Assembly: GCA_963575745.1 (NCBI GenBank)
Contig: CAUYUJ010000115.1
Location: 124,001-188,000 of the forward strand
Direction: 5' to 3'
From: Prorocentrum cordatum
Lineage: Eukaryota
DNA: 64,000 nucleotides
In this document: in pieces, positions 2,174-63,290 of the stretch
Layout of the letters: every line of letters begins with the position of its first letter
Numbering within the stretch: position 1 is the first letter of the stretch
Made by a program: the position numbers and the translations under genes
The notes under the pieces: model-generated
Databases searched by the model: none
What the model was told of the DNA's origin: nothing
The model's input: only the letters and a program-made list of their open reading frames with translations

Positions 2174-2383
2174 TCAGCTACAATTCTGGGATCAGCGCGT
2201 GCGCGAAGGGCGATCAGTGGCAGCGGGCGCTGGCGCTGCTGACCGAGATGCGGGAAGCGAAGCTGGAACCCGACGCCATCAGCTACACCGCTGGGATCAG
2301 CGCGTGCGCGAAGGGCGATCAGTGGCAGCGGGCGCTGGCGCTGCTGACCGAGATTTCGGAGGCGACGCTGGAGCACAACGTAA
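2174..2383 (+). CDS. PPR block, 2 repeats (210 bp), coding fragment
   Basis: SYNSGISACAKGDQWQRALALLTEMREAKLEPDAI SYTAGISACAKG...LEHNV. 35-aa P-type PPR motif, no stops. Confidence 0.8.
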
Positions 2384-3295
2384 TTGATCGAAGACGCCTA
2401 CAGCGAATCACCGCCGCCCCCTGCCTTTTGGAATCGCCCATGTGGCCGAGTGTTGTGGCAAGATCTCTGCCAAGCTATCGGGCCATGTGTTCCCCAGCCG
2501 TTGTAGAAACCAGTCGGGGAACACTTGGGGGAGGAGGAGGAGGAGGAGGAGGAGGAGGAGGAGGAGGAGGAGGAGGAGGAGGAGGAGGAGGAGGAGGAGG
2601 AGAGGGCATCTTGGGAGCCTCTGGTGCTCACTCTTGGGGTTTCCTGGGAGCAGCCTGCGAGCCTTTGGGAGGCATCTTGGGGGCCGCCTCTCTGGGCCGA
2701 TTTGGGGCCTTTCTTGGGGTGCTCCAGGGCCGTCTTGGAGGCCACCTTGGGCGTCTTGGAGGTCTCTTGGGCCGTCTTGGGGCCACCCTTGGGCCGTCTT
2801 GGGGGCCTCTTGGCCCGTTCTGAGGCCATCTTGGAGGCCTTTTGGGCGATCTCGGGGCGATAGTTTGGGGCTCTTGGGCCGTCTCGGGCCGTCGGAGGAC
2901 CGAAGAGAAACAAATGCCAAAATCCTTTCAAAACCTACGGAATATCAATAATTGTTGCCTCTTCGGGCCTTCCCAGAGGACCTCTTGGAGGCCTCTTGGG
3001 CCGTCTTGGAGGCCTCTTGGGGGCCTCTTGGGCCGTATTGGGCCATCTTGAGGCCATCTCGGACCATGTTGGAGACTTCTTGGGCGCACTTGGCGGCATC
3101 TTGGACCCTCTTGGGCCGTTTTGGAGGCCATATGGGCGAGCTTAGATGCCATTTCGGGACAGCTGAGCCGTCATAAAAGCCATCTTGGGCCATATTGGAA
3201 CGGAGCGGCATTGATATAGACATGTTGCAGTCCTTACCGGTTGACCGACTGGACGGGCCGAAGCCCCAGGGGGAATTCTTTTGGGGAAAAACAAA

Positions 3296-3400
3296 TGTGA
3301 GATAGTGTATGTGCCACGTGTGTATATGCACTACTCGCTGCCGTTTGACCTCTACGGGGGATTGTTTTTGCCAGTGCGCTAAAAATGCATCATAATCACA
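3296..3400 (+). repeat. 5' LTR
   Basis: TGTGA...TCACA ends. Aligns by eye with 13903-14005 (shared core TCGCTGCCGTTTGACCTCTA). Confidence 0.9.
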
Positions 3401-3401
3401 C

Positions 3402-3413
3402 TGGTAGCGGAGC
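3402..3413 (+). promoter_or_regulatory. Primer-binding site
   Basis: TGGTAGCGGAGC 1 nt after the 5' LTR. Resembles the Met-tRNA-type PBS TGGTATCAGAGC. Confidence 0.75.
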
Positions 3414-3529
3414 TACTACACGGTCCTCGTGTCGTACCACTGCGCGCACGTTTCGCCAGAGAGTGTCGCACTACCTCCCTTTACTTTCTGTGCTGGCAGA
3501 TTCCCTCGCTAGGGGACTGAGCCTTGCGC

Positions 3530-14005: not shown

Positions 14006-16542
14006 ACAAACATCCACGACCGATCTAGCACGCCAGGCACCTCTGTGGCAAGACCATAGGAGGCGGCGGATATAATGACCTTCGGCTTATCCCGCCACCG
14101 TACCCCCACTGTGGTTCAGAGGCCGTCTTGGGGTCCTCTTGGGTGCCTCTTGGGCCTTTTTGGGTTCCTCGCGGGCCGTCTTGGGGCCCTTTTGGGGTGT
14201 TCTGGGGCCCTCCTGTGGGTGTCCTTGGCAGTCCTACGGTGTTTTTCGGGGCTTCTCGGTTCGTCTTGGAGCGCTCGAAGAGGCAAACGTGGAGACTGAC
14301 GTAAATCTTCCTTTATGGCAGATCCCCGCGTTCGCCAGCAGCCCAAACAGGTCCTGCCCCACGTGCGGCTGGGCTCTGGAGCGCCGAAGGAGCCCAGAAG
14401 ATGTTGAAGACGTCGCCAAGATGCCACCGTATACCAGAACAGTAATCCAGGGGGCCAAGATAGCCTTCGACAGAGCCCGAAATAGTTGAATTCGATCCAA
14501 AGGTTTTGCCCCGAGTGCGGCTTCGGCCTCTGGAACTCCGAAGGAGTCTAGAATTCGCCAAAGACGGCGCCAAGATGCCGCCAGATGCCACAAAGGTGCC
14601 CCAGGCGCCCAAGGGTGCCAATATAACCCTCCACAGGGCCCGACATTTGGAATGTGGTTCCAATGGCGGTTGGGACTATTCCCAAGAGCCACCAAGGAGG
14701 GCTCACGAGTTTCCCGAGACGACGGGGAGGCGCCCGAGGATTCAGAGGAGGACCCGCCGAGGTCAAATCAGTAATTTCGCAGTGCTTTTTGAAGACTTGC
14801 GGGGTGTCTTGCCGCCACAGGCTTCCGCCACTCCAAGACGGCGTGGGGGCCCCTTGGATGCCACCACGACGACCAACCTATAGGCCCTCGCGAGAGGGGC
14901 CCCAGACTGGCCAAGGAGGTCTCAAGTTGGCCCAAAGGAGGAGGAGGAGGAAGTGGAGGAGGAGGAGGAGGATGAGGAGGAGGAGGAGGAGGGGGAGGAG
15001 GAGGAGGGGAGGAGGAGGGGAGGAGGGGGAGGGGGAGGAGGAGGAGGAGGAGGAGGAGGAGGAGGAGGAGGAGGAGGAGGAAAAGGAGGAGGGGGGGGAG
15101 ACCACTGGAGCTTTATGACGGCCCTGGAGGGCCCAAGGTGGCCGCCAAGATGCCCCAAGCTGGCTCCAGGATGACCTCGCGTGGCCCCCCATCCCAGAGC
15201 CCAAGAGGCTCCCAGGAGGCCTCCCCCAGAGGCATCCGATGGCTCCGACGAGACTCCATAGAGACCCATGGGAGCGCCCCCGAGCGGTTCCACTGCTGCC
15301 CGAGAATTCTCCACGATGGCCGAATGTGCTTCTGAGATGCCCCAATCGCCACTCCTGGGCACGCAGCACCACCCAGCGAAAAGCAGCAGCACGCAGCACG
15401 CAGCACCGGCAAGCCGCATCAAGTAGCAGCACGCCGCTCAGGGGCAAAACGATAGGGGGGAATAGGCATACGGGGGACGCATCGACCCCCAATCCCCCCT
15501 TGATCGCCGATAGGGGCCCGATAGCCCTAACCTGCCCAGGACGGCGCGGACTCACTATCGGGGCCCTATCGCCGAGCTCTCGGCGACGTATCGCCGCTTC
15601 CAGGTCGATGCATCCCCCCCCTATGCCAGTCCCCCCCCCGATCGTTGCTCCTCAGCCACAGCCAGCACCAGGCCGCAGCGACGAAAAAGAGCACTGCAGC
15701 ACCACGCATCGGCAGCCGGCAGGAGGCGGCACGGTGCGGAAGGACGATCAAGTCGGCAAGCAGTCAGGAAGCAGGCGAGTCGTCCAAAGGCTGTCAGCTC
15801 ACCAGCCTCGGCAGGACAGCAGGCGGGCGGGCAGGTCAGAAAGCAGGCGATCCCCACCAGTCCACGGACACCCCATCGCGGCTCCCCAAGTGTCCTGGCT
15901 CCCTTCCGGGCCCGTCACTCGTCTCCCCTCTCTCACCGCCCCTCCCTACTTGCCCCTCGCCTCTCACTCCGGGCTATTCGCTCCCTCTCCTCCCTCCTCC
16001 CTCCTCGCGCCTCCCCCTTGCCAGACCCATGCGGCCCCACAGGGGCCTCAAGAGCGACCCAGGGAGCCTCGCAACGGCTACGTGCTCACTCCTCACTCCT
16101 TGCTCCTTGATAGTCACTTCTTGCTAGTTTCTTGCTGCTCAGAGCTCGGGCCTCGGGACCGGCGTCGAGATGCCGGCAACATCCCATGCCCGCGACCGTT
16201 AAGATGCCATCGATGCCGGGAACGACGTCGAGGTGGCAGTCACTCCTCGCCCCCTTGCCCCCGCTCCTTGCTCTTCTCACTGCTCCTTCCTCTCTCCTGG
16301 CCCCTTGCTCACTCCTGGCTACTCGTTCCTCCTCCCTTCTCGCATCTGCCTCCTGCCAGTCCTACCTGGCCCCAGGAAGCCCAGCGACGGCTACCTCCCT
16401 CACTCCTCCATCCTCGTTGCTCCCTGCTCGTTTCTCGCCGCTCGCTGCTCGGGCCTTCACGGCGTTCGGCAGCGTTGTCGCCATCGCATCACATGCCACT
16501 TCGGAAAGGTTTCGTGGAAAGCAGTCCACGGCACAGCCTTGG

Positions 16543-17767
16543 TCTACCGTACAACGCCAGGGGAACCGCGTGCCAGAGGGAAAATGTTTCAAAAGACTCG
16601 GGACCAGCCCCGGCGCGCTCCAGGCTCCCCCCAGAGCTTTCCAAGACGGCCCAAGGAGGGCTCCCAGACGGCTCAAGATGGCCCGAGACGCTTGCAGACG
16701 GTCGAAGAGGTCGCCGCTATGGCGTTCAGACGGTCCCACTCCCACGGGGACCCCCAGACAGCAAAAGAGGCCCAAAGACGGCCCCAAGACGGCCCAAGAG
16801 GGCCCCAAGACTGCTCAAGATTGTTCCAGGAGCGCCCCAAGAGGGGGAACTCGAACTGACATTTCGCGCCCTCCGCTTCAGGATGATCCCAGCAGCCGTC
16901 AGCAGGCCCCCCCCAAACCGCCTCCTAGTTTGGAGCTTCGTGGTAACATCTCTTAGAGATCTCTGGGACCGAGCAGGGGACCCAGGAAAATAAGGCGTCC
17001 ATGTGCCTCTTTTGTTTCAAATTTCTTTTAACAGGCTCCGTTCTGAATGGGCGACTCGTTGGAGAGTTCTCCCTAAGTGTGCTCCAGACAGGCCGGCCAT
17101 CGGGAGCATGCTCCGCAGTGCCTTCGAACTTCTTCCGAGCCTACGCAACCAGCGCGCATCCTCCGACCTCTTTGGGTGGCCACAGCCACCGTGGAACATC
17201 GTTGGGAACTAAGGCCCACATACGTATGCCTCGTGTTTTCCATCCTTGGCCCTACTACGGCCTTAAGTCGTCTCAAGATCACCCTGGGGCGGCCCAAAAA
17301 GCCCCCATTACCCTAAAACCAGCAGCATGAAACACGAAGCAGGAAGCGCAGCGGCAGCACACAGCAACAGAAAGGAGCAGCAGCAGCAGCAGCAGCAGCA
17401 AGCAGCACCCAGCAGCACGCACCAGGCCGACGTGGCTATCAGCAGCACCCTGGAGACACAAACAACAACAGCAGCAGCAACAACAACAATATCAACAACA
17501 ACAACAACAACAATAACAACAATAATAACAACAGCAACAACACCAATAAGAACAACACCACCAACAACAGCAACAACAACACGCAGCAGCGGCGAGCATC
17601 ACCAACAGCACGCGACAGCAGCAGGAAACAGCAACACGCAGTAGCATGCGCGGAATGCGAGGATCGATCCCCGCGTCGTAATCTCGGCTTGTCGGCAGCA
17701 TGTCTACAATCACGTTCCAGTTCGTGCAGGTTTCGTGGACCGAGTCCAAGGGTCAGTCCTATCATAG
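16543..17767 (+). mobile_element. Helitron-like unit
   Basis: 5' TCTACCGTACAACGCCAGGGGAACCGCGTGCC. 3' TGGAC-CGA-GTCCA hairpin (about 17736-17748) + ...CTATCATAG. Internal CAG/ACA-rich tract at 17340-17640. Confidence 0.65.
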
Positions 17768-17872
17768 TCAGCTACAGCGCTGGGATCAGCGCGTGCGAGA
17801 AGGGCAAGCAGTGGCAGCGGGCGCTGGCGCTGCTGAGCGAGATGCGGGAGGCGAAGCAGGAACCGAACGTCA
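17768..17872 (+). CDS. PPR block, 1 repeat (105 bp)
   Basis: SYSAGISACEKGKQWQRALALLSEMREAKQEPNV. Confidence 0.8.
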
Positions 17873-23145: not shown

Positions 23146-24889
23146 GATCCCCGCCTTCGTAGTGGCTAGGGTTGCTCAGGGATTGTAACTAATCAGCTTT
23201 ATCTAGTCCTTGTCCTGTAGCCAGTTTCCTGCGAGTGTCCCGAATTCCGCATGTAGACATATGTAACCCTCGTTCCGTCATCGCCCCTTAGTAAAGTGTC
23301 CTAAGCTATTTGCGCCCCGCGTTTGCGCAGGGGTTGGGTACGTCGCCAGGGTAATTTTGTGTTGCGGCAGACGCTGTCTCTATCCCCAGAAGAGGCAAGA
23401 TCTTCAGACAGAGGTTATGAGGTTCCGTTCAACGATGTAGATTTAGGGCATGGCGGCAACAAAACTTGAACCGCCCAGGCCTGTTACCAGCCTGTAGCGA
23501 GAGGGCCTCTATTGGACCCCAACTGGGTTCCAATAGTTCTTTGAGGATACCACAAGGATAGCAATAGGACGCGAATCGGGGCACAATATGTGTCAAAGGG
23601 GACAGGTTTTTGTTGAGTTGCAGTTGGGTCCTGGTGGGATTCCAGTAGTACGCCCGTATGGACCGAAAAGGAACATGCGATTGTATTCCAATGCGACATC
23701 CTTCATCTTCGCAAATATGGTTATGATGGGATTCCAAGAAGAACGTCCCCTATCGTTTTCGAGTGTGAACCTGCAATAATACCCACCGGGTTTCCATGTA
23801 CTACCCTCAGTACGTTTCCCGCAGCATTCTAACAGGAAGGTTTCTCGATTTTAATCTAGTGCGGTTTCCAATCGGTTTCCATTGGGAGGGGCCCCTACGG
23901 GTTTCAATAGGCAGCATCCCGATCGGATTCCAATAGGAAGCCCGTAGGCCCCATATCGATGACTTTTGTTGGCTACCACTGGGATTCATCTGGTGCCAGC
24001 AGGATCCCTGTGGGAAGGGTGCCAATCGGGTTCCATTCGGATTCCTATTGGATCCCGTTAGTTAGGAATCCGCCACTTCACATATTCTCGCTTCAGACGG
24101 GTCACTTTACAACCAACACGCTTCAGAGAGCGAAGTGTCTCCCTTACGTGGACCCACGGAAACTTCGGAAATTGAAGAACATGTATCGCTTATGTGCGTT
24201 TATTTGCTTGGTTGTGAAGTGGCCTTCCTGGTTGTAAAGTGCCCTTCTGGGAAAACCCATGCTGGTTGGTAAGTGCCCCATATGGTTGTAATGTGGCCGC
24301 TCTGGTTACAATGTGGCCCACACGCCCCCCTCTCCCCCCTTCCCCCGGGACCCCCCCCCGCCGGGGAAGGGACACAGGGAATGGGGCTTCCTTTTGACGT
24401 GACTGCGACGTGGGTCGATTTCCCTCAATCCCGGGACTCCTTCCCCCAACGACGGGAGAGTGCTCTATCCCTACGGGGAAGGATAAACGGAAAAGGGGTC
24501 CCGTCGACGGGACCAGACAGATCCCTCACGCACGCCGACAGGGTGGGCAGATTTTTGGGCTCTCTTAGGCGTGTCTTGGAGCATTGGAGGAGCACCATAG
24601 AGGCTCACTGGGAGTAAGCAAGGGGGGCGAAGAGGGCCCCAAAAATGTCCAGGAAACTCCAAGGGGGCCCAAAAAGGGCTTCAATATGAACAGACATTTG
24701 CCAGACACCGCTTCCTGGTGGGGCGCGCTGTTTCTCAATTTCTGTTCAATTGGGCACCCTCTTAGACGCTTCTTGGAGCGGCGCTTCGACGAGCTGTTCG
24801 GTTTCGACGGGCTGGTCTGTGGAGTAAATCCACGGCGTGCGAGCCCCAGGTTGCGCACGCAGTGGATTCAATCCACGGGTGCACACTAT

Positions 24890-25099
24890 TTAGCTATAAT
24901 GCTGGGATCCGCGCGTGCGAGAATTGCGAGCAGCGGAAGTCGGCGCTGGCGCTGCTGAGCGAGATGCGGGAGGCGAAGGTGTTGCCCAACGTCATCAGCT
25001 ACAGCGTTGGGATCAGCGCGTGCGAAAAGGGCGAGCAGTGGCAGCGGGCGTTGGCGCTGCTGAGCGAGATGTGGGAGGCGAAGGTGTTGCCCGACGTCA
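24890..25099 (+). CDS. PPR block, 2 repeats (210 bp)
   Basis: SYNAGIRACENCEQRKSALALLSEMREAKVLPNVI SYSVGISACEKGEQWQRALALLSEMWEAKVLPDV. Confidence 0.8.
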
Positions 25100-26182
25100 T
25101 CTCTCCTACAATGGCTGGATCGGCGCTCGCGGAGCTGCCGATCGGTGGCAGCGGATAGGCCCTCTCCGGCGGCCCCTGCGAGCCCCAGCAGGCTTCGGCG
25201 CGCTTCCAAGATGGCCCAAGAGCTTTCCGAGACGCACGAGGAGGCCCCCAACAGGGCCCCCAGACGGCCGAAGACGGTCCAGGAGGCTTCCGAAACGCTC
25301 CAAGTGGGCTCCACGACGAGCCCCAAGAGAGCCCGAACACAGAAAAATCGTCCCATTTCGTTTGGAAATAGTTCATTTTGGCAGTTCCCGAGCTTGCCCG
25401 CTTCATAGCGTCCAAAACGGCCATGCAGCGGCCCAAGATGGCCCCAGGACGGCTCCTGAGGCGCCCCTGGCGGCTACGGGGCACCCAAGACAGCCTCAAG
25501 AGCGGCCCAGGACGGCCCTAGACGACCCCCAGGGTGGGCCCAGACTGCTCCAGAGACGTCCAAGAAGGCCCCAGACAACCCCCAGACGGCCACGGACCGA
25601 CTCCACATGGAGCAAGGGGCACTCGAAACAGCCCCAGAGGGCCACAGGAGGCTTCCAGGAGGCCGAAAATAACTGAGAGGCTCCTAGACGACCCCCAGAG
25701 GCCCCAAGATCACGGCCCAAGAAGCACCGAAGACGGCGCCAAAAGACGGCCTAAGACGGCCACACACGGTCCCAAAACGTCTCCCAGCGCACCATGGGGC
25801 TCTGATGCGTGTTCGGCGCTCCTTGCCGGATTTGGCCCAAAATCCCTCGCCCGTTTTGTCGGTCTGGAGACCTCTCCGCGGCATCTTGAGGGCATGCCGT
25901 GTTTCGCTCTTCTGGTGGCCCAGAATCGCCTCGCCTCGGGGGGGTTCACAGCTTCGGAAGGTTTTTGAAACAGGCCCCAGAGGTCTTTTGGCGGGTCTCG
26001 ACCCTGCCCTATCATATTAGGACCGGTTCCTAGCGGGGATCATTTCGGGCCTGCTTTGGGGCTTCATGGGGCATTTTGGCGGGTCTCGGCCCTGCCCTAT
26101 CATGATAGGGCAGGGATTCGACGCCATTTGGGCCCACTTTGGGCCACCTCCGCCAGTGGCAGCAAGCACGGGTACACACTAG
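25100..26182 (+). mobile_element. Helitron-like unit
   Basis: A|TCTCTCCTACAATGG...CTAG|T with an imperfect hairpin at about 26156-26169. Body similar to 32305-33180. Confidence 0.7.
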
Positions 26183-26287
26183 TCAGCTACACCGCTGGGA
26201 TCAGCGCGTGCGAGAAGGGCAGGCAGTGGCAGCGGGCGCTGGCGCTGCTGAGCGAGATGCGGGCGGCGAAGCTGGAGCCTAACGTCA
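26183..26287 (+). CDS. PPR block, 1 repeat (105 bp)
   Basis: SYTAGISACEKGRQWQRALALLSEMRAAKLEPNV. Confidence 0.8.
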
Positions 26288-26293
26288 CCTCCA

Positions 26294-26469
26294 CAGTCGG
26301 GGCCCTCAAGAAGGAACCCTTTTCGTTGGGGAGGGGCTCCGTGTTCCTTGATTGCTTCACGGTCTGCCTTGGCTTTTCCTCTGGTCTTCGAGGGGAAATC
26401 GAAGTTCAACTTGTGGATGAAAGGGGCCTCGTTCCTTCTTTAGGGCTCCTTGGGTCAACGCTCCGACTG
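26294..26469. mobile_element. Tc1/mariner-type MITE, older copy
   Basis: CAGTCGG...CCGACTG ends with decayed flanks (CA/TG). Homologous to 26648-26824. Confidence 0.7.
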
Positions 26470-26647
26470 TGCTACACTGCAGGCACCCGCGCGAGCGAGA
26501 CGGACGGGGAGCCGGGGCGCGGGGCCCCGGCGCCCGGGCGGCCCCTGCGGGCTCCTGCGAGCCCCAGCAGGCCCCGGCGCGCTGCCAGAGGACCCCCGGG
26601 GCCCCCCAAGAGCAGCTCGGGGGCGGCAAAAGGGGGGGTGATGACTA

Positions 26648-26824
26648 CAGTCGGGGCCCTGAAGAAGGAACGCTTTTCGTTGGGGAGACTCTCGGTGTTC
26701 CTTGATTGTTTTACAGTTTGCCTCGGGTTCCCCGTAGGTTTTTGCATGGGGAATCGAAGTTTAACTTATGGAAAAGAGGGGCCTCGTTCCTTATTTAGGG
26801 TTCCTTAGGTCGAGGCCCCGACTG
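26648..26824. mobile_element. Tc1/mariner-type MITE
   Basis: TA|CAGTCGGGGCC...GGCCCCGACTG|TA: perfect 11-bp TIR and TA duplication. Confidence 0.82.
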
Positions 26825-28309
26825 TAGGGGGGAGGGGATAGCATGGCGGGGGCCATGATATGTCCCCAGGTTTCATGGCGCCCCTTGTTATTCCATTACG
26901 TCCCTGGCCCCCCCGCTGGGCCGCGCACGTGCCGCCGGTCATGATTTGCACCCCCCCCTCTTGGACACCCCCCTCTTGGCCGCTCCCGAGCAGCCCAAGA
27001 CGGTCCAGGAGGGCATCCGAGACGGTCCAAGAGCGATGGCAGACACCCAAGAGAGCCACCAGACGGCCCAAGAGGTTCCTAGAGCGCTCCAGGTCGGCTC
27101 CAAGAAGAGTCCCAAGAGAGCCCGCGCAGGGACAGATTGTCCCAATCCCTGGGGAAAACGTACATATTTGCAATTCCCGTGCATTTCGTTTCAAAGCGTC
27201 CAAGAGGACAATTCGCGCCCCCAAGATCACCCCAAGACGCCTCAGGAACGCTCCATGAGAACGGCTCAAGACGGCCCCAGGACTGCCCAAGACGGTTAAG
27301 GACCGTTCCTGAGGCGCCCACGACGGCCCAAGAGGCCCCCAGGAGGCCGCAAGACGGTCCAATGGGATTTCAAAAGGCCCCGCGGAGACTGAAAAGAAAC
27401 CCCGAGACTCTCGGGCCGAGAGGCACCCAAACAGTTCCCAAGGAGGAAGCGCCCGCCATTAGTGGCCGCATAGGGGGCGTTGCCTTCCTGAGTTGGGTGC
27501 GGGCGCGAGAGCGCGAAGCTAAACTGGCTCCTAACGGCGCCCCAGACGGCTCCGAACTGCTCAAAGGGCGCCACCACGACCTTAAGACGGTTCCGAGCCG
27601 CTCCAGAGACCGCCCCGATGGCCCCAAGGGCGCTCCGAGCCGCTCAAGAGGCCATTCCGACGGCACCAATGGCTTCAGGGTAGGCCAGGAGCCTCCGAAG
27701 ACGGCCCTCGAGGATTCCCGAGGACAGCCCCGAGACGCAAACATCGTCCCATTCCCACTGTGTTTTTTCTCTCGTGCATTTTGTCCCCGACGCGTCCACG
27801 ATGGCCACAGAGCCCCCTACGATCGTCCTAAGATGCACCCATCAGGGCCCCAAGACGGGCCCAGGACGGCCCAAGAGGCGCCCAAGGCAACCCGAGATGC
27901 ACCAGAGACAGTCCCAAAGACGGCCCCAGACGGCCCGAGACGGCCCGAACACGGCCCAATGGGCGCCCAATACGGACCACGACGGCCCCAAGACGGCCCC
28001 GAAGGCACCCAAGACAGCCCCAAGAGCCACCCAAGGCGGTCCCAAACGGCCCCCAGACGGCCCGAGAGGCGCCCCAAACGGCCCAGGACGGTTCCGAGAC
28101 GGCCCAAACGGCACCGACGAGAGCCCAAGAATGTCCAAAGAGGCTCCCTCGAACCCGACAAAAAAGACCAAGAGGCCCCACACGGACCCAACAGGGGGGG
28201 CGGACGAGAGGTGAAGAGGCAGAACGCAGGCCCCAACAGCCGCTTTCGATGCCCCCGAGGGTCTACGATTGACGATCCAAGATCCAGGGCATGCAGGATC
28301 GAGGTATGA

Positions 28310-28616
28310 TGGAGCAGGAGGAGCAGCAGGAGCAGCAGGAGGAGGAGGAGGAGGAGGAGGAGGAGGAGGAGGAGGAGGACGAGGAGGACGAGGAGGACGA
28401 GGAGGACGAGGAGGAGGCGGAGGCAGAGGAGCAGGAGGAGCAGGAGGAGGAGAAGGAGGAGGAGGAGGAGCAGGAGGAGGAGAAGGAGGAGGAGGAGGAG
28501 GCGGAGGAGGAGGAGGAGGAGCAGGGGGAGGAGGAAGAGGAGGAGGGGGAGGAGGAGGAGGAGGAGGAGGAGGAGGAGGGGGAGGAGGAGGAGGAGGAGG
28601 GGGAGGAGGAGGAGAA
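28310..28616. repeat. (GGA)n-type microsatellite (representative; similar tracts at 1890, 2530, 14935, 38670, 40540, 50340)
   Basis: Seen directly in the sequence. Confidence 0.95.
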
Positions 28617-33700: not shown

Positions 33701-33784
<84 letters not shown>

Positions 33785-33972: not shown

Positions 33973-34287
33973 TCAGCTACAACGCTGGGATCAGCGCGTG
34001 CGCCAAGGGCGAGCAGTGGCAGCGCGCTCTGGCGCTGCTGAGCGAGATGTGTGAGGCTAAGCTGGATCCCGACGTCATCAGCTACAACGCTGGGATCAGC
34101 GCGTGCGCGAAGGGCGAGCAGTGGCAGCGCGCTCTGGTTCTGCTAAGCAAGATGCGGGAGGCGAAGCTGGAGCCCGCCGTCATCAGTTACAATGCCGGGA
34201 TCCGTGCGTGTTCGAATGCCGAGCAGTGGCATCGGGCCATGGCGCTGCTGAGCGAGATGCGGAAGGCTAAGCTGGAGCCCGACGTCA
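33973..34287 (+). CDS. PPR block, 3 repeats (315 bp)
   Basis: Three in-frame SYNAGI..C..GEQWQRALALLSEM..AKLEPDV-type units. Confidence 0.85.
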
Positions 34288-51741: not shown

Positions 51742-52744
51742 AGGAGGAGGAGTCGGAGGAAGGAGGACTCGTTGCCCGCGGTTCTCCGCCGGGACATTGC
51801 AACGGGGAATCCCCGTTCCACGCCGCTGCCTCGGTTTTGGCATCTCGGATCTTGGGGCCCTGTCAGAGATCAAGCCATATTGGCGACGCCTTAAGCCGTC
51901 TGGAGGTGCCTGGAGCCATCTTGGAAGTGTTGGAAGCCTCCTGGCATATTTTGGGGCAGTCTTGGGCTGTTTCGGGGCTCGCTTGGGGTGCTCTTAGGCC
52001 ATCCAGGCGCCCTCTTGAGCGGCTCTGAGCGTTCTTGGACAGTCTTGGAGCCTTCTGGCGGCCGTCCAGGGCAGTCCAGAGCCTCCCCAGGAGCCCCAGC
52101 GACCGTCTAGGGTCGCCTTGGGATCTTGGGGAGCCGCCCCGGGCCGAGATGCGCCGGTGCAATCTCGCACGCGCTGATTCCAGTATTGCCCCCACCAATT
52201 CTGAATCTCGCCATCACTCGGACGTCCATTCCCCTTGCATTTTTCGATGTCGTGCGTTCCAATTGTTCCTTCAAAAAATGATCCAATATGCTCCTCGATG
52301 GCCCTCGCTGAAAAAAGTGCACACGTCCGAGCGATGCCAAGTAATGGGATCGCCCCCCCCCGATGGATCCCCCCCTCTGTGGGTATGGTGTGGTGCTGAG
52401 GTGCCGCCCCCCTGTGGGTGTGGTTTGGTGCTGTGATGCTCCATTGGGCGGGAGAGATGCAGCTTGCCAGCACACGGGGCGGTGGCCTCCACGAGAGGTC
52501 CAGAGGTCCTCGTCGTCCTCGTCCTCGTTGTCGTTTTCGACATCGTCGTGCTCGTCGTCGTCGTCCACGACAGCGTAGTGCTCGTCGTCGTCGCTGTCCT
52601 CGTCGCCGCCGCCGCCGCCACCCTCGTCGCCCTCGTCATCGTCGACATCGTCGTCGTCGTGGTCGTCGTCAACGTCGTCGTCGTCGCCGTGCCCCCATCC
52701 CATCTTTCGGGGGGGCGCGCGGACCTCGAGCTCGGGAGCATAGA
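51742..52744 (-). mobile_element. Helitron-like unit, 5' part (no 3' end before the foldback)
   Basis: A|TCTATGCTCCCGAGC follows the PPR block. PPR-like relic NTGISACE at about 52164-52187. Confidence 0.5.
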
Positions 52745-53059
52745 TAACGTCTGGCTTCAGCCTCGTCTCCCACATCTCGCTCAGCAGCGCCAGAGCCCGC
52801 TGCCACTGCTCGCCCTGTGCGCACGCGATGATCCCAGCGCTGCAGCTGGTGATGTCGGATCCCAGCATCGCCTCCCACATCTCGCTCAGCAGCGCCAGAG
52901 CCCGCTGCCACTGCTGGCACTTCCCGCAAGCGCTGATCCCAGCGGTATAGCTGATGGCGTTGGGCACTAGCTTCGCCTCCCACATCTCGCTCAGCAGCGC
53001 CAGAGCCCGCTGCCACTGCTCGCCCTTGTCGCAGGCGCTCATCCCAGCGCTGTAGCTGA
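52745..53059 (-). CDS. PPR block, 3 repeats (315 bp)
   Basis: SYSAGMSACDKGEQWQRALALLSEMWEAKLVPNAI SYTAG...LGSDIT SCSAG...LKPDV. Confidence 0.85.
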
Positions 53060-54439
53060 CTAGGGCTGGACCCGTGGCCTACCAGCCACGAAATCTGTCT
53101 GAGATGGCACGCGGGACCAGGGCAGAGATGTTTCCGAAAGACTTTCGTGGTGACGTTGGGCCCGAACTGCGCCTCTGGCGCTGCTGCCTGCAGCTGCAGG
53201 GTGCTGCCGCCTGCGGAATGGTGCTGCTCCTGCGAACCTGGGCTGTGTGCTGCCGCCGTTTGCTGCGGAGTGCTTCCGTTCGCTGCTGCCACTAGAGGCC
53301 AGAAGGTTCTGCTTGCTGGCAGCCTTGCCAGCTGTCGCAAGTGGCAGCCTGCCAGCTGAGCAACGAGCGAGGAGTCAGGTATGAGGGAGGGAGGATGCCA
53401 GGAGCGATCAGCGAGGAGCAAGGAGCAAGGAGTGAGAAAGGAAGCCACGTTGGAAGAGAGAAGAGAGAGAAGAGAGAGGCGAGGAGCGATGAGGGATAGC
53501 CGAAGGAGGGAGGAGGCAGACGCCAGTAGTCTAGAGTGGGAAGGGTGGGGGCCAGGAGAGAGGTGGGAAGAGCGAGGGGGAGCGAGAAGGGAGAAGCCAG
53601 GAGCGAGGAGCGAGAGGCAGGTAAGCAAGAAAAGAGCGGCGACGAGCGAGAAACGTGGAGCAAGTAGGGAGAAGGGGAGCACGAGAAGAGGCCAGCACAC
53701 GAATGCCGCAATGGCCTCGGCGCGTGTGCGGCCGAACATCTGGTCTTCTCCAGGGTCGCCGACGGGGCTCTCCTGGGTGGTCGGTGCGGCCCCAGCACTC
53801 TCTAAGGGACCTTCCCTCGGAAGCCTCTGTGCGGCGGCTTCTGCGGTGTCTTGGGCCCCTCGGGGCCCTCTTGGGCCTGACTTGGGCCTCGTGCGGGCCT
53901 CCTGGCGCTTCTAGGAGGGGGGGCTCTTCGGGGTCTGCTGGCCGTCTCGAGCGCCATCTTGGGGCGGAGGGTTCCAAATGCCAGTTCCCGGATCCCCCTC
54001 TTGGGGCCCTCTTGGGTCCCTCTCGGGGCCGACTTGCAGCTCTCCTGGGCTGCCTGGGGGCCCTCTTGGAGGCCTGTTGGGCCACCTCGGGGCGAGGTGT
54101 GGGGCCGCTTGGCCATCATTAGCATCCGGAGCTCGAAAAGGCGAAACGTCGACATCCTTCAAAAACTGATCGGAAATCGGTGTCGGGCACTCTTCAGGGG
54201 CCTCTCTCTTGGGACTTTCGCAGGCCGTCTTGGGGGCCCCCTGTGCCGTTGGGGCCGTCTTGGAAGCCTCTTCGGCCGTCTTTGGGCTCCGCTGGGCCGT
54301 ATAGGAGACGTGGCCCAAGGCCCGCAGGGCTGTCGGAGTTCCCCCGAGAGCGCTTTTCTGCCTCCCGGGCATGTCTGAAGGAGAGGTAACCTGACGAAAG
54401 ACCCAACCACATGCAGCTGCGAGTACCGAATTGTGCTTA

Positions 54440-56627: not shown

Positions 56628-56659
56628 GATCTGCAGTCGTGTGCGCGTCCCTTTAATAC

Positions 56660-59320: not shown

Positions 59321-59656
59321 AGCGAGAGCAGCATGTTGGAAACAAGTGCAGGCGAAAACCAAACTCCTGGGAAACCTGTGTGTAAAAAAACAGTGCGCGG
59401 GGGGGGGTCGGACACTTTCAAACCGTCATCAGGGGAAGAGGGAGAGTAGTATTCATATTGAGTAATTGTGGAGGAGGAGGGGGGATGAGAAGAGGAGGAG
59501 GAGGACGAGGAGGAAGAGGAAGGAGAAGAAGGAGAGGCGGGAGGTCGGAGAGCACAGTGCTCTGTTCAAAACGAAAACCCAACACAGGCGGGTTGGGCAA
59601 AGACACTGGTGCACAAAATCTCTTCGCACGCGGAGGTTCCGGCATTCTAGAGGAGG

Positions 59657-59761
59657 TGACGTTGGGCTTCAGCTTCGCCTTCCGCATCTCGCTCAGCAGC
59701 TCCAGAGCCGCCTGCCACTGCTCGCCCTTCTCGCACGCACTGATCCCAGCGCTGTAGCTGA
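59657..59761 (-). CDS. PPR block, 1 repeat (105 bp)
   Basis: SYSAGISACEKGEQWQAALELLSEMRKAKLKPNV. Confidence 0.8.
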
Positions 59762-60586
59762 CTAGGGCAGACCTGTGGACTCCGTCCACGACATCAGCTC
59801 GACGTAGCGAGGGGTCTCTGGGCAAGCGCGGGGGGGTGCGGCTGCAGGGCCGAAAGGCAATCATGATGCCTGTCGCCTCTCGTCCGCTCCCCCGCTCCTG
59901 GAGGGAATTCTGAAGCCACTGAAGGCTTCGTGGGGGCCGTTTCGGAGCCTCTTCGGCCTTCTTTTGGGCCTCCTGGGGGGGCTCTTAGGGCCCTCTCGAA
60001 CCGTCTTGGGTGCCTCTTGGGCCGTCTTGGGGCCGTCTGAGGCCCGCCTGGGCGCCTCTTGGGCTGTCTTGGGCCGTCTTGGGCCGCTCTTGGGGCCGTC
60101 TCGGGTGCCTCTTGGGCCGTCTTGGGCGCCTCCTGGGCCGTCCTGGGGCCGTCCTGGGGCGTCTTGGGACCGTCTTGGGGCCCTCCTGGCCCGCCTTGGG
60201 GCTCTCTTGGGGTCCTCTGCGGCCGTCTTGGAGCGGTCGGGGGGACTTCTGGGGCCGTCTTGGAGCGTCGGGAAGCCGAAGAGGCGAGGAGGCCGAAAAC
60301 ATCGAAAAACACAATAGAAATCGACGATTTCTGTCGCTCGGGGCCCTCTTGGGAGGCCTCTTCGGGCGTCTTGGACGCCTCTTGGGCCGTCTGGGGCGAA
60401 CCTCGGGCGTCTTGGGCCCACCTTTAAGCGTGCCGGGGCTCTCCCGGGCCGTCTTGGGGGCTTCTGGGGGCCCTCTTGACGTGTCTTGGGGCCTCCCTGG
60501 GCGGCCCGGGGCCAGCCCGGGGCGGTTTCGGTGCATTGGGGCCTGCGCCATTCTGGCACGCACTGGGCCCTGCAATGTAGTAGAGA
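59762..60586 (-). mobile_element. Helitron-like unit (inverted copy of the 923-2173 family)
   Basis: 5' TCTCTACTACATTGC. 3' GTGGAC-GGA-GTCCAC + CTAG|T. Confidence 0.8.
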
Positions 60587-62503
60587 CTAGGGCTGACCCG
60601 CGGCCTTCCGGCCGCGGAATCTGCCCGCCATGGCTTGGACGTGGAAGTGGAGCGTCTCTGGGGCCTCGCGAGTAAGGGGAGGTTGGAGGGGACGGTGTGG
60701 ATGGAGGAGGTGGCCGCTGGAGGGGGAGGTGGGCGAGGGATGCAGGCAAGCAGGCCTGAAGGCAGGAACGCGGTGGTGGAGGCGGTGTCAATGGAAGCGC
60801 ACCCATGTAGGCATGACAGCTGTTTCTGACGCCGCAGTCTGTGTTCATCATAGCTTCTGCGGGGAGGGCAGTCGTGAGAAGTTATCTGCTCTTCGCCGGG
60901 GCCGAATGATAATTTGATGTGGTAGTGTGGTAACAATGGGGCCAGTGGGCGCGGCCTAGGAGGCCCGCAAGAGGGCGGCGAGACGTAACTCCCTAAGACG
61001 GGCCCCAGTGCGAGGACACGAATCGACCTTTCGAGCGCATCGCCCCAAGACGTCCCCAAATGGCGCAGAGATGGCTCGCAGTGGGTCCAAGAAGCCCCCA
61101 AGACGATACTGGAAGTTCGACGCTCCCCAAGAGAGAAGCATCCAACGCCTCTTGGGGGCCGCTTGGGGGCCCTTTTCGTCCTCCTGGGGGTCTCTTGAAG
61201 CCCTCTTGGGCAATCTTGAGTGCGTCTTGGGCCGTCTTGGGGCGATGTGGGGCCGTCTTGGACGCCTCTCGGCATCTTGGGACAGTCTTGGAGCTATCGT
61301 GGGCAAATTTTGGGCGCTCTTGGGGTTGTCTTTGGTGTTTCTTGAGCCGTCTCGGGCGCCTCTGGAGCCGTCCCTGACGGCCCAGAGACCGTCTTGGAGA
61401 CTGTCCAAACGGAAAGGCGTGGAGACGATGGTGGGGGCATCTACAGCCGTCTTGGAGACGGGGCGGTGGGGCCGTCTTGGGCCATTATTGACTGATCTTG
61501 GGGCTGTATTGGGTGCGTCTTGGGCCGTCTCGGGGCCCTCCTGGGGCCCTCCTGGGAAGCCTCTTCGGCGTCTCTTGGGCCGTCGTAGAGGCGTCTTGGG
61601 CCGTCTTGGCGCCGCAAAAGGCAGTCTTGGCTTGTCGTGGAGCGCTCTTGGAGCGTCTTGGGGATACCTTGGGGCCGTCCTGGGAGCCTCTTGGTGTCAC
61701 CCTGGGGCCGTTGTGGGCGCCTCTTGGGCTCTCTTGACGCCCTCTCGGGCCGGTTTTCGTGCGTCTTGGGGGCCTCTTGGGCCATCTTGGGGCGGTCGTG
61801 GGGACCTGGAACCAGCTTCTGCGCCATATTCCCGTGAAGCAGCGCATGCTGGAAGTGAGCGTTTTTCTTCGGGGAAACAATGAGTTTCGCCTCTGGGGGC
61901 CATCCTTGGACGCCTCTTGGGCGTCTCTGGGGCCGTCGTGGAGGCGTCCTGGGCCGTCTTGGGTTTGTTTTCGGCGGTCTTGGGCTCTCTTGGAGCGCTC
62001 TTGGGCCGTCTTGGGGGAGTCTGGGGCCGTCCTGGGCGCCTCCTGGGAGCCTCTGGGGGCCGCCTGGGGGCCGTGTTGGGCGCCTCTTGGGTCTCTGGAC
62101 GCTCTCGCGGGCCTGTTTTCGTGCCTCTGGGGGGCCTCTTGGGCCGTCTTGGGGCGGTCGTGGGGGCCTCTTGTCCCATCTTTTGCGCCATACTCCCGAC
62201 AAGCAGTGCGTGCTAAAATTTGATGTTTTTCGTTGGAAAAACAATGATTTGATCCTGGGACGCCTCTTGAGCGTCTCTGGGGCCGTCGTGGAGGCCTCCT
62301 GGGCCTTGTCGGGACCGTTTTCGGCGGTCTGGAGCTCTCTTGGAGCGCTCTTGGGCCGTTTTTGGGGTGTCTGGGGCCGTCCTGGGCGCCTCTGGGGCCG
62401 CGTGAGCGCCTCTGGGGCGTCCCTGGAGCCGTTGTGGGGCATTTTTCGCCCATCAAGACAGGGACCCTTCCCGCACGCACGGGTCCCTGCATTGTAGAGA
62501 AGA
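60587..62503 (-). mobile_element. Helitron-like unit (head-to-tail junctions on both sides)
   Basis: 5' TCTTCTCTACAATGC. 3' CCGCGGCC-GGAA-GGCCGCGG (about 60598-60617) + CTAG. Confidence 0.75.
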
Positions 62504-63185
62504 CTAGGGCTGACCTGTGGACTCCGTCCACGACATCTTTCTGTAATGGTTCTCGGAGGAACGGCGGAGATTTTGCCGAAGGCCAATAAGCACGGCGGCG
62601 GCCGGGGCGGAGGCAGCCAAACTGAAGTCTCACGGGGATGTGCGTCAAAATTGAAGCCCATCTGAGGCGTCTCGTGAGCGCCTGGGGAAGGGCTCGGGAG
62701 GCCCTCGGGGAAAGCCACCGGGAGCGCCGGGGAGTCTTGCCAGGATCTCTTCGGGCGCTTTTGGGCCATCTTGGAACCCTTTTGGCCCGTCTAGGACCTC
62801 TCTTGGAAGTTTGAGGCACTAGGAGCCGTCTGGAGCAGTTCTTGGGGCGAAGTTGGGAGATCCTGAGAGTCAGTCAACGACTATGGGAAATCTTCGATTC
62901 GGGCATCGTGGGGCCGTCAGTCATCCAGGTCCTCTTGGCCGTCTTGGAGGGCCTCCTGGCTCGCGTTGGGGCCGTCTTGGGCCATTCTGAGGCTCGCTTC
63001 GGGCTCTCTGGGACCACCTGGGCTTGGGCCGTCGTTGGACGTCCTGGAGCCTTCCAGCGGCCGTCCAGCGCCGTCCGGGGTCGCCCCAGGGGCACCGGGT
63101 CGCCCCTGGAGCGCCGGGAGCCGCCCCGGCCTGCTGCCGCTGCAGCGCCATCTCGCGCGCGCGGGCCCGAGCTTGGTGGTACAGG
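62504..63185 (-). mobile_element. Helitron-like unit
   Basis: 5' CCTGTACCACCAAGC. 3' GTGGAC-GGA-GTCCAC (62517-62531) + CTAG. Confidence 0.72.
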
Positions 63186-63290
63186 TGACGTCGGGCAGCA
63201 GCTTCGCCTCCCGCATCTCGCCCAGCAGCGCCAGAGCACGCTGCCACTGCCCCCCCTTCTCGCACGCGCTGATCCCAGCGCTGTAGCTGA
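63186..63290 (-). CDS. PPR block, 1 repeat (105 bp)
   Basis: SYSAGISACEKGGQWQRALALLGEMREAKLLPDV. Confidence 0.8.

What the first reader, a model, noticed from the sequence alone, without database searches (positions are those of the whole stretch)
2174..63290. Dispersed PPR units keep valid, varied RNA-recognition code pairs, and the breakpoint leaves each pair intact
Seen: all 16 units are stop-free and in frame, although the surrounding elements are heavily decayed. Residue 5/35 pairs on + are ND, TN | SN | NN, SD | TN | ND, TN | ND, NA, ND. On - (in transcript order) they are SD | SN | SN, TD, SD. Established: in the PPR code TN/SN bind A, TD/SD bind G, ND binds U and NN binds C/U, so 15 of 16 are recognised pairs. 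The cut lies 4 nt after codon 35, so each cassette holds complete base-specifying modules. Inference: this could be a transposon-driven combinatorial shuffling system for RNA-binding specificity. It could equally be a once-contiguous PPR gene riddled with insertions.
Basis: partly seen in the sequence, partly recalled or inferred. Interest (0 to 1): 0.82.

Follow-up and report, generated by a model that had tools for sequence, protein, structure and literature searches.

The report
PPR repeats split by Helitron-like transposons
The scattered, intact-looking RNA-binding (PPR) repeat units are pieces of repeat arrays of a dinoflagellate cut at one fixed base by rolling-circle (Helitron-like) transposons, which explains the clean cut without any designed shuffling system.

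Summary
The window has 16 PPR units of exactly 105 nt in 9 clusters, stop-free and indel-free, with the 5/35 residue pairs exactly as listed.

The "breakpoint" is a transposon terminus. Every cluster is preceded by a conserved hairpin plus CTAG. Eight of 9 are followed by a recognisable TCTCTACTAC-type start. These are the 3' and 5' ends of canonical Helitron-type rolling-circle elements. They sit at the A|T of the unit junction GTCA|TCAGC, so removing the element restores a perfect junction.

Six more junctions join the two ends with no PPR unit between them. That gives 15 junctions with exactly n x 105 nt, n = 0 to 3.

One element copy is near-identical at three loci, and similarity drops at CTAG, where different PPR units begin.

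The closest proteins are Prorocentrum cordatum gene models. Among 246 units taken from the 120 database hits, 93% carry ND, SN, SD or NN, so "valid code pairs" are the family norm.

Substitutions look nearly neutral (dN/dS about 0.56). The lack of stops and indels shows constraint in the past or still acting.

A shuffling system is not supported; "a PPR array riddled with insertions" largely is. The site-specific targeting is the new part. No RNA data could be obtained.

The parts
2174..2383 (+). PPR cassette A, 2 units (ND, TN), exactly 210 nt between the CTCG 3' end and the next element
   Evidence: Pfam PPR_2 in ORF 1096-2820
17768..17872 (+). PPR cassette B, 1 unit (SN)
24890..25099 (+). 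PPR cassette C, 2 units (NN, SD). C1 has lost conserved W17 and Q18.
26183..26287 (+). PPR cassette D, 1 unit (TN). It is 94% identical to B1 although the flanks differ.
32095..32304 (+). PPR cassette E, 2 units (ND, TN)
33973..34287 (+). PPR cassette F, 3 units (ND, NA, ND). TRF reports period 105 with 0% indels.
52745..53059 (-). PPR cassette G, 3 units (SN, TD, SD)
59657..59761 (-). PPR cassette H, 1 unit (SN)
63186..63290 (-). PPR cassette I, 1 unit (SD)
888..922 (+). Helitron-like 3' end (hairpin GTGGAC/GTCCAC + CTAG), joined directly to the next 5' end (n = 0)
923..2173 (+). Complete non-autonomous element (TCTCTACTAC ... CTCG). It has internal 21-nt repeats, (GGA)n and a partial PPR piece at 2019-2064. 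A second copy lies at 60586-59762.
16508..16580 (+). Diverged 3' end | 5' end junction (n = 0) at 16542/16543
17727..17767 (+). 3' end (hairpin + ATAG) before cassette B
24855..24889 (+). 3' end before cassette C. The stem is GTGGAT/ATCCAC (compensatory change) and the terminus is CTAT.
25100..26182 (+). Element between cassettes C and D (TCTCTCCTAC ... CTAG), 1083 nt
26288..29295 (+). Element(s) after cassette D. The 5' end is degenerate; the 3' end is hairpin + CTAG at 29261-29295.
29296..31185 (+). Element bounded by n = 0 junctions on both sides
31186..32094 (+). Element (TCTCTCCTAC ... CTAG) before cassette E
32305..33972 (+). Element between cassettes E and F (TCTCTACTAC ... TTAG), 1668 nt
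34288..34334 (+). 5' end after cassette F (TCTTCTCTACAATGC...). The stretch 34290-34588 is 90.7% identical to the element that starts at 62503 (-), which has no PPR in front of it.
62504..63185 (-). Element after cassette I (CCTGTACCAC ... CTAG), 682 nt
60587..62503 (-). Element bounded by n = 0 junctions at 62504/62503 and 60587/60586
59762..60586 (-). Second copy of the 923-2173 element (94% over 767 nt, 3 mismatches in the last 103 nt). It ends in CTAG before cassette H.
53060..53094 (-). 3' end (stem GTGGCC/GGCCAC + CTAG) before cassette G
52700..52744 (-). Diverged 5' end after cassette G (TCTATGCTCC...)
59609..59656 (-). 5' end after cassette H (CCTCCTCTAGAATGCC...)

Best explanation
The window comes from a dinoflagellate; the closest proteins are gene models of Prorocentrum cordatum. 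It holds what were arrays of 'SACEK'-type P-class PPR repeats. Non-autonomous Helitron-like rolling-circle transposons have invaded these arrays.

The elements have these features:
- 5'-TCTCTACTAC at one end.
- A short hairpin about 12-13 nt before a 3'-CTAG at the other end.
- No terminal inverted repeats and no target duplication.

They insert in one orientation at the A|T of the unit junction ...GAC GTC A|TC AGC TAC.... Because that point lies at the border of the 105-nt unit, what remains between two elements is always a whole number of units (0, 1, 2 or 3).

The first ~40 nt of the elements are themselves PPR-derived: TC followed by a copy of a unit start with AG changed to TA. I infer that the transposase cuts sequences resembling its own 5' end. 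Those would be PPR unit starts and the 5' ends of resident copies. This would explain both the fixed site and the head-to-tail stacks.

Shown: the termini, the exact n x 105 spacing, the empty junctions, and the independent histories of elements and neighbouring units.

Inferred: the mechanism of target choice, that the arrays were once contiguous, and that the cassettes are now relics, or at best occasionally exonised, and not a working system.
For: (1) Anatomy.
- There are 15 junctions of the form hairpin-CTAG | n x 105 nt | TCTCTAC...: 9 with PPR units and 6 with none.
- No 3' end was found next to unrelated DNA.

(2) Helitron hallmarks. The definitions come from passages of PMC5148889 (5'-TC, 3'-CTRR, hairpin 10-12 nt from the end, AT target, no duplication) and PMC2267711 (5' pattern, CTAGT).
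- CTAG is exact in 9 of 15 3' ends, and T follows in 15 of 15.
- 15 of 16 3' ends fold into a hairpin at the same place. Their stems differ (GTGGAC/GTCCAC, GTGGAT/ATCCAC, GCGGCC/GGCCGC, GTGGCC/GGCCAC).
- 10 of 15 5' ends start with TC.
- The maize 5' pattern TCYMTAYTAM occurs 3 times in 64 kb against 0.15 expected, each time at a junction.
- A precedes the element at 9 of 9 PPR-flanked sites. Joining the flanks gives the same GxCATCAGCTAC as six of the seven uninterrupted junctions; the seventh, G2/G3, reads ATCACCAGCTGC.

(3) Mobility and target choice.
- The element at 923-2173 recurs at 60586-59762. It is bounded exactly by its two ends, with different neighbours on both sides.
- Between loci A and H there are 3 mismatches in 103 nt before CTAG against 16 in 101 nt after it (Fisher P = 0.0015).
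- A third locus on another P. cordatum scaffold is 49/49 aa identical up to the end, then 28/34 in the PPR unit.
- Conversely, B1 and D1 are 94% identical but have unlike flanks.

(4) The same structure elsewhere.
- A metagenome contig shows it.
- Database proteins from other loci read through PPR-end to 5'-end peptide junctions.

(5) All boundaries use one of the three AT sites of the unit, even though ATCAGC also occurs at position 22.

(6) Nothing else coding is present. Pfam on 146 of the 154 ORFs of 150 aa or more that passed a low-complexity filter gave only PPR families, apart from four marginal hits to unrelated families.
Against: - No RepHel gene is in the window and the genome could not be searched, so the autonomous partner is unseen.
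- All 15 3' ends abut PPR or another element. That is also what a cargo or concatemer model predicts.
- The units are star-like: about 84% identity within and between clusters. This looks like a burst from a common source as much as like old repeats of one gene.
- No N- or C-terminal non-PPR gene parts were recognised.
- Zero stops against 5.9 expected (P = 0.0014), and zero indels against about 11 expected from the indel-to-substitution ratio of non-coding repeat pairs in the same window (P about 1e-5). This means the units were under constraint for most of their divergence, and may still be.
- The independence of the insertions is not proven. Gene conversion among the many PPR units could mimic it.
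Confidence: 0.55

Rival explanations
1. The PPR units are cargo of the elements. The family's 5' end was born inside a PPR array. The transposase can start at the optimised TCTCTAC or at any upstream unit start (TCAGCTAC), so copies carry 0-3 whole units at their 5' side and spread them around the genome. Arrays arise by tandem insertion or rolling-circle concatemers.
For: - Every element begins with a PPR-derived ~40 nt: 66-79% identity to a unit start over about 41 nt (nhmmer fragments).
- Junctions with n = 0 exist.
- All 15 3' ends are followed by PPR or a 5' end, never by other DNA.
- The units show a star-like phylogeny.
- Units of this type recur in P. cordatum gene models: 147 hits, some fused to LINE-like or tyrosine-recombinase parts.
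- Elements 90-94% alike differ in n: 3 at 34288 against 0 at 62503.
Against: - No positional orthology. The unit next to the 5' end carries varied 5/35 pairs in the window (TN, SN, SD, TN, TN, ND, SD, SN, SD) and in other loci.
- Variation at codon 5 is balanced: 6 N, 6 S, 4 T. That is not expected from decay of one captured unit.
- It does not by itself explain why the left neighbour is always another element's CTAG; a target preference is still needed.
- It does not explain the lack of indels.
Confidence: 0.25
2. One ancestral insertion into a PPR array was multiplied by unequal crossing-over between flanking PPR units. This duplicated unit-plus-element modules, so the shared cut site reflects common descent and not target choice.
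For: - Same orientation and same phase at all junctions.
- Local homogenisation inside clusters: A1/A2 and F1/F2 share residues 6-24.
- TRF sees the clusters as 105-nt tandem repeats.
Against: - Elements between clusters differ greatly in length (682 to about 3000 nt). They are mostly 70% identical or less, or unalignable, while the units are 84% alike.
- The element at 923-2173 has its closest relative 58 kb away in inverted orientation and on another scaffold, with homology ending exactly at its termini.
Confidence: 0.1
3. The cassettes are live exons. The Helitron-like elements serve as introns (introners) or as vehicles that recombine whole base-reading modules, so that multi-cassette PPR proteins with new RNA specificities are made.
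For: - No stop and no indel in 1680 nt, against clear neutral expectations.
- The elements end in AG.
- Codons 5 and 35 are among the most variable: amino-acid diversity 0.70 and 0.59.
- Helitron-derived introners are on record in fungi (PMC12130899, passages).
- P. cordatum introns are reported as rich in introner elements (PMC10666404, passages).
Against: - Precise removal needs TC...AG, CT...GT or TC...TC borders, none of them GT/GC/GA-AG. Using the GT of GTCA with the CTAG acceptor deletes 4 nt and shifts the frame.
- 6 of 9 clusters lack an upstream in-frame ATG.
- dN/dS is about 0.56, and synonymous changes number 47 against 38.7 expected (P = 0.05).
- Codons 12, 15, 28 and 33 vary as much as 5 and 35.
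- Conserved residues are lost in C1, F3 and G3.
- Database gene models of this kind are mosaics of the PPR frame and its +1/+2 frames ending in stops.
- No model of 189 aa or more contains cassette F (best identity 83%).
Confidence: 0.08

Closest known systems
Canonical (Helitron1-type) non-autonomous Helitrons of plants and bats
   Same: - 5'-TC start. The first 10 nt, TCTCTACTAC, fit the maize 5' pattern (PMC2267711, passages).
- 3'-CTAG followed by T.
- A short hairpin just before the 3' end.
- Insertion between A and T without duplication.
- Head-to-tail G/T junctions of unlike copies, which the maize paper attributes to consecutive insertion.
- A tandem-repeat-rich interior.
   Different: - No RepHel seen here.
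- One fixed target inside a coding repeat, not any AT.
- The 5' end contains a PPR-derived stretch.
- GC-rich dinoflagellate host.
- The hairpin lies 12-13 nt from the end, not the 10-12 nt usually stated.
Site-specific transposons that live in repeated host sequences (R1/R2 in rDNA; Tx1L in Tx1D; FoHeli with a TNAT|A preference)
   Same: Insertion at one sequence position of a multi-copy target, in one orientation, giving many independent hits at the same base. FoHeli shows that Helitrons can have extended target preferences (PMC5148889, passages). R1/R2 and Tx1L are recalled, not read here.
   Different: The target here is the junction of a protein-coding helical repeat. The mechanism would be rolling-circle, not retrotransposition. 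Specificity is inferred, not demonstrated.
SACEK-type P-class PPR proteins of dinoflagellates
   Same: The units carry the I-S-A-C-E-K-G motif, W17 and the N/S/T5 + D/N35 code residues described for P. cordatum, Polarella and Alexandrium (PMC12787238, passages). Pfam PPR_2/PPR/PPR_3 hits were found.
   Different: Here the arrays are broken into pieces of 1-3 units by transposons, mostly without a start codon. They are not shown to be expressed.
Introner elements, including rare Helitron-derived introners
   Same: Transposons sitting inside coding sequence and ending in AG. The P. cordatum genome paper reports introner-rich long introns (PMC10666404; PMC12130899, passages).
   Different: No usable 5' splice site at the element border. 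No terminal inverted repeats in 6 of 8 elements tested. Excision in frame is not possible with known dinoflagellate splice rules.
Helitron gene-fragment capture and exon shuffling (maize)
   Same: Host coding fragments found in association with Helitron ends and dispersed in the genome.
   Different: Captured fragments normally lie inside an element at arbitrary breakpoints. Here the coding units lie between a 3' end and the next 5' end, always in whole units.

Membership tests
Helitron (canonical Helitron1-type), non-autonomous | 5' terminus TC, with a conserved 5' motif | tested here: met
   10 of 15 5' ends start with TC; the others start CC x3, TA x1, TT x1. The pattern TCYMTAYTAM from PMC2267711 has 3 hits in the window against 0.15 expected, all at junctions.
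Helitron (canonical Helitron1-type), non-autonomous | 3' terminus CTRR | tested here: met
   CTAG is exact in 9 of 15. One-base variants are CTCG, ATAG, CTAT, TTAG and CCAG; TTGG differs at two bases. The metagenome copy also has CTAG.
Helitron (canonical Helitron1-type), non-autonomous | Short hairpin about 10-12 nt before the 3' end | tested here: met
   15 of 16 ends (15 in the window plus L001) fold with a 5-8 bp stem ending 12-13 nt before the terminal base. The stems differ between copies while pairing is kept. One end (26148-26182) is degenerate. Single-sequence z-scores are modest, -0.6 to -5.3.
Helitron (canonical Helitron1-type), non-autonomous | Insertion between host A and T without target-site duplication | tested here: met
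   A precedes the 5' end at 9 of 9 PPR-flanked sites, and T follows the 3' end at 15 of 15. The joined flanks give GxCA|TCAGCTAC, as at six of the seven uninterrupted junctions; G2/G3 reads ATCACCAGCTGC. An alternative parse with a 2-nt TC duplication cannot be excluded.
Helitron (canonical Helitron1-type), non-autonomous | Copies at several loci bounded by the same termini | tested here: met
   The element 923-2173 equals 60586-59762, with different neighbours on both sides. A third locus shows the same drop of identity at CTAG. Only one subfamily could be tested.
Helitron (canonical Helitron1-type), non-autonomous | An autonomous partner encoding RepHel in the same genome | not testable with these tools
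   No genome is held for the window. Pfam on 146 window ORFs found no Rep or helicase. Earlier notes on this genome mention Helentron-like elements (unchecked). A RepHel is reported in Symbiodinium (PMC8788227, passages).
Helitron2 / Helentron | Asymmetric terminal inverted repeats (feature recalled from memory) | tested here: not met
   The longest inverted match between the first 40 nt and the last 90 nt is no better than shuffles in 6 of 8 complete elements. The two copies of one element share a 9-mer.
P-class PPR repeat (SACEK type) | 35-residue helical-hairpin motif recognised by PPR profiles | tested here: met
   PF13041, PF01535 and PF13812 hit the ORFs tested, which cover 8 of the 9 clusters; the ORF with cassette C gave none in the frame tested, and the ORF with cassette I was not among the 146 sent. 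All 16 units align over 35 residues without gaps.
P-class PPR protein gene | A contiguous array in one ORF with a start codon and (usually) a targeting peptide | tested here: not met
   The longest run is 3 units. 6 of 9 clusters have no in-frame ATG between the upstream stop and the first unit.
Spliceosomal intron / introner | GT, GC or GA at the 5' border and AG at the 3' border, giving an in-frame join | tested here: not met
   The borders compatible with exact removal are TC...AG, CT...GT or TC...TC. GT(CA)...AG removes 4 extra nt. No RNA data could be obtained.

The most novel reading that the evidence does not exclude
A Helitron-like family whose 5' end was born from a PPR unit now homes to the junction between PPR units, and to its own 5' ends. 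It thereby cuts RNA-reading repeat arrays into whole modules that each sit right behind an AG acceptor. These indel-free, stop-free modules are kept usable and are recombined or exonised into new PPR proteins. That would be a transposon-driven source of new RNA-binding specificities and of the large PPR repertoire of this dinoflagellate.
Probability: 0.1. Interest if true: 0.8.

Novelty: new variant of a known kind. Interest (0 to 1): 0.45.

Why it matters
Helitrons are usually said to need only an AT dinucleotide. A family that hits one fixed base of a coding repeat, and that carries a copy of that repeat at its own 5' end, would be a clear case of sequence-guided target choice by a rolling-circle transposase. 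It would also offer a way to study what the enzyme recognises.

There is a practical point for dinoflagellate genomics. Many of the PPR 'genes' counted in P. cordatum may be transposon-flanked cassettes. The review PMC12787238 cites 536 P-class models. The models retrieved here are mosaics of the PPR frame and shifted frames. PPR counts and expression studies may therefore need filtering.

The absence of indels and stops in the cassettes leaves open whether they are recent relics or still used.

Tried and rejected
- **RNA evidence.** The look-up of sequencing runs (kind rna) on window 24500-34400 listed no RNA holder.
- **Whole genome.** None is held for this window.
- **Earlier scan notes.** Searches by place, by sequence and by several words found nothing on this locus. 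Notes on other pieces of the same genome mention an abundant hairpin-ended, Helentron-like transposon.
- **The 3'-end pattern in other collections.** It was absent from genome contigs and viral contigs. One metagenome contig matched.
- **Homologous recombination of a circular intermediate.** I considered that a circle might integrate through its 40-nt PPR-like stretch. I rejected this by reasoning: it predicts the TCTA variant at the right junction and the AG variant at the left, the opposite of what is seen.
- **One large inverted duplication.** I considered that this might explain the + and - series. I rejected it: the palindrome found (37636-43636 against 51741-45826, 84%) stops short of cassettes F and G, and the other inverted matches are not collinear.
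- **Positional orthology of units.** I looked for it between last, penultimate and earlier units, and at unit phylogeny against position. The matrix is star-like with no position signal.
- **Literature.** Searches for Helitron + dinoflagellate, Helitron + pentatricopeptide + target site, Prorocentrum cordatum + pentatricopeptide, and SACEK found no description of this association. Subscription journals are not covered.
- **Not attempted.** The predicted RNA target string was not scanned against organelle RNAs, because the arrays are fragmented and no organelle sequence is available.
- **Spliced-leader remnants.** A search gave only two weak 13-of-15 matches inside the palindrome arms.

Full report
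**What is there.** The window is GC-rich (56-65%) and repeat-laden.

A motif scan of all six frames, translation of the clusters and an nhmmer profile find exactly 16 full-length PPR units of 105 nt, in 9 clusters:
- 11 units on the + strand between 2170 and 34283.
- 5 units on the - strand between 63294 and 52749.

Pfam sees PPR families and, apart from four marginal hits to unrelated families, nothing else. I sent 146 ORFs of 150 aa or more, out of the 154 that passed my low-complexity filter.

The closest database proteins are gene models of Prorocentrum cordatum, at 60-83% identity. Other dinoflagellates reach about 40-46%. Earlier notes of this scan also call the genome a dinoflagellate. 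The units carry the I-S-A-C-E-K-G signature that a recent review calls SACEK-type PPR and lists as abundant in P. cordatum (PMC12787238, passages read).

**What the breakpoint is.**

*The two borders.* Aligning the borders of the 9 clusters shows two conserved flanks.
- Upstream lies a small palindrome (typically GTGGACnnAGTCCAC), about nine bases, then CTAG. The first unit starts right after it with TCAGCTAC.
- Downstream, after GAC/AAC GTC A, comes TCTCTACTACAATGC... or a worn version of it.

*Junctions with no unit.* The same two flanks also occur joined directly, CTAG|TCTCTACTAC, with no PPR unit between them.

*The inventory.* Profiles of both flanks give 15 junctions in the window: 9 with units and 6 empty. 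Between CTAG| and |TC lie exactly 0, 105, 210 or 315 nt. No 3' flank was found next to unrelated DNA.

*Match to Helitrons.* These flanks match the published definition of canonical Helitrons: 5'-TC, 3'-CTRR, a short hairpin 10-12 nt from the 3' end, insertion into AT, and no target duplication (PMC5148889, passages).
- The first ten bases fit the maize 5' search pattern TC[TC][CA]TA[CT]TA[CA], and the 3' side fits CTAGT (PMC2267711, passages).
- That 10-nt pattern occurs three times in the 64 kb against 0.15 expected, each time at one of my junctions.
- 15 of 16 3' ends (15 from the window, one from a metagenome contig) fold into a hairpin at the same distance from the end. Several have different stem sequences that keep pairing. 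Single-sequence z-scores are modest, so the argument rests on position and compensation.
- Terminal inverted repeats are absent in 6 of 8 complete elements. This argues against the Helitron2/Helentron type and against the inverted-repeat introners described for this species.

Deleting an element restores the sequence seen at six of the seven uninterrupted junctions (GxC ATC AGC TAC); the seventh, G2/G3, reads ATC ACC AGC TGC. Whole-unit cassettes are therefore an automatic result of where the elements sit.

**Are the elements mobile, and do they choose this site?**

*One element at several loci.* One element (923-2173) recurs at 60586-59762 in inverted orientation, 94% identical over 767 nt. 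It is bounded by its own two ends. Its left neighbours are two different 3' hairpins, and its right neighbours are two different PPR units.
- Between these loci there are 3 mismatches in the 103 nt before the end and 16 in the 101 nt after it (P = 0.0015).
- Two P. cordatum gene models from another scaffold are 49/49 aa identical to the element's 3' part and only 28/34 identical in the following unit.

*Similar units, unlike flanks.* In the other direction, units B1 and D1 are 94% identical but have unlike flanks. Elements and neighbouring units thus have separate histories.

*Choice among AT sites.* The consensus unit offers three AT sites (positions 4, 22, 79). Position 22 even shares the hexamer ATCAGC, yet every boundary is at position 4. 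If the insertions were independent, this would be about (1/3)^9. Independence is not proven.

*A PPR-derived 5' end.* The first ~40 nt of the elements are TC followed by a PPR unit start with AG changed to TA. Identity to the unit is 66-79% over about 41 nt, without internal gaps in the best copies.

*My inference.* The transposase cuts sequences like its own 5' end. That makes PPR unit starts and resident 5' ends the preferred targets. This would explain both the fixed site and the head-to-tail stacks of unlike elements. Such G/T junctions of unlike Helitrons were attributed to consecutive insertions in maize (PMC2267711).

*The structure elsewhere.* The same structure appears outside the window.
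- A 1259-nt metagenome contig has the 21-nt internal repeats, the hairpin, CTAG and then at least three units.
- Database proteins from other contigs read through RTS-peptide to PPR and PPR to LTS-peptide junctions, with 2, 3 or 5 units between.

**Are the cassettes under selection?**

| Measure | Result |
|---|---|
| Pairwise dN/dS | about 0.56 |
| Diversity by codon position 1 / 2 / 3 | 0.17 / 0.145 / 0.20 |
| Pairwise identity, within and between clusters | about 84% (star-like) |
| Differences from the consensus | 150 |
| Synonymous changes, observed / expected | 47 / 38.7 (P = 0.05) |
| Stops, observed / expected | 0 / 5.9 (P = 0.0014) |
| Stops expected among the 53 singletons | 3.0 (P = 0.038) |
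| Indels, observed / expected | 0 / about 11 (P about 1e-5) |

The expected syn/non-syn/stop counts come from reshuffling the substitutions by type and CpG context. The expected indel count uses non-coding repeat pairs of the same window as a yardstick, which show 7 gap openings per 94 mismatches.

Most of the divergence between units therefore arose under constraint on the reading frame, as expected for repeats of real PPR proteins. Recent evolution looks relaxed: conserved residues are lost in C1, F3 and G3.

Codons 5 and 35 are highly variable (0.70 and 0.59), but so are codons 12, 15, 28 and 33. D/N at 35 and R/W at 28 are single CpG transitions. Variation at codon 5 (6 N, 6 S, 4 T) is not CpG-driven, and I read it as inherited from the source arrays.

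In 246 full-length units taken from the 120 database hits, 230 carry ND, SN, SD or NN. So 15 'valid' pairs out of 16 is what any unit of this family shows.

**Could they still be joined into proteins?**
- Six of 9 clusters have no in-frame ATG upstream.
- Exact removal of an element would need TC...AG, CT...GT or TC...TC borders. Using the GT of GTCA with the CTAG acceptor loses 4 nt.
- The species' annotation pipeline allowed GT, GC and GA donors only (PMC10666404, passages).
- The gene models retrieved are mosaics of the PPR frame and its two shifted frames, often ending in a stop shortly after a junction.
- No model of 189 aa or more contains cassette F (best identity 83%).
- RNA runs could not be found, so expression remains untested.

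**Verdict.** The shuffling-system reading is not supported.

I add three points: the insertions are Helitron-like, they are site- and orientation-specific, and they start with a PPR-derived end. I put 0.55 on site-specific invasion of pre-existing arrays, 0.25 on the units being 5' cargo of the elements, 0.10 on module duplication from one insertion, and 0.08 on live exons.

I found no description of a Helitron-PPR association in the literature I could search. This scan had noted hairpin-ended Helentron-like elements on other pieces of the same genome, but not this association.

Noticed in passing
window 37636-43636 (+) and 51741-45826 (-); inner part 43452-44404 and 46948-46000: A large palindrome with arms of about 6 kb at 84% identity (inner part 93%). 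It is centred near 44.7-45.2 kb, where a 107-nt unit that is itself palindromic repeats 4.3 times (44801-45256). It lies between the two convergent PPR/element arrays but does not include cassettes F or G.
   Followed up: partly
window 21919-23144 (+) and 54958-58832: Two arrays of a 101-102-nt satellite (up to 10.5 copies, 81-93% matches). The second array looks like the reverse complement of the first, mirroring the orientation of the two halves of the window.
   Followed up: no
window 1049-1545, 27837-28150, 29374-29790, 36150-36800, 59930-60400, 61500-62200 and elsewhere; L001 1-60 and 650-760: A 10.5/21-nt tandem repeat (GGCCCAAGACGGCCCCAAGAC-like, reading PKTAQEAP in one frame) fills the interior of most Helitron-like elements, also in the metagenome copy. 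Long (GGA)n, (GAC)n and (GAG)n runs accompany it.
   Followed up: no
window 2019-2173: Inside the element 923-2173 lies the last 46 nt of a PPR unit, followed at the canonical A|TC point by a 106-nt mini-element (TCATGATTGC ... hairpin ... CTCG). The copy at 60586-59762 lacks the 415 nt (1652-2066) that hold the (GGA)n run and this PPR piece. The third locus (P0118/P0121) has them.
   Followed up: partly
proteins P0001-P0121 (database hits, mostly P. cordatum gene models): Many annotated PPR 'proteins' of this species switch between the PPR frame and its +1 (QLQRWDQRVREG...) and +2 (SATALGSARARR...) frames. Some include peptides encoded by element ends; one (P0003) has a long non-PPR insert that looks LINE-like by eye, and one (P0105) is named a tyrosine-recombinase-domain protein by its source. 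Published PPR gene counts for this species may be inflated by such cassettes.
   Followed up: partly
window 42698-42712 (-) and 46750-46764 (+): Two mirror-image 13-of-15 matches to the 3' part of the dinoflagellate spliced leader (motif recalled from memory), one in each palindrome arm (2 found, 0.14 expected). This is too weak to call a relic leader.
   Followed up: no
window units A2, D1, E2, G2: Threonine at PPR position 5 is found in 4 of 16 window units but only 6 of 246 background units. This local enrichment is unexplained.
   Followed up: no
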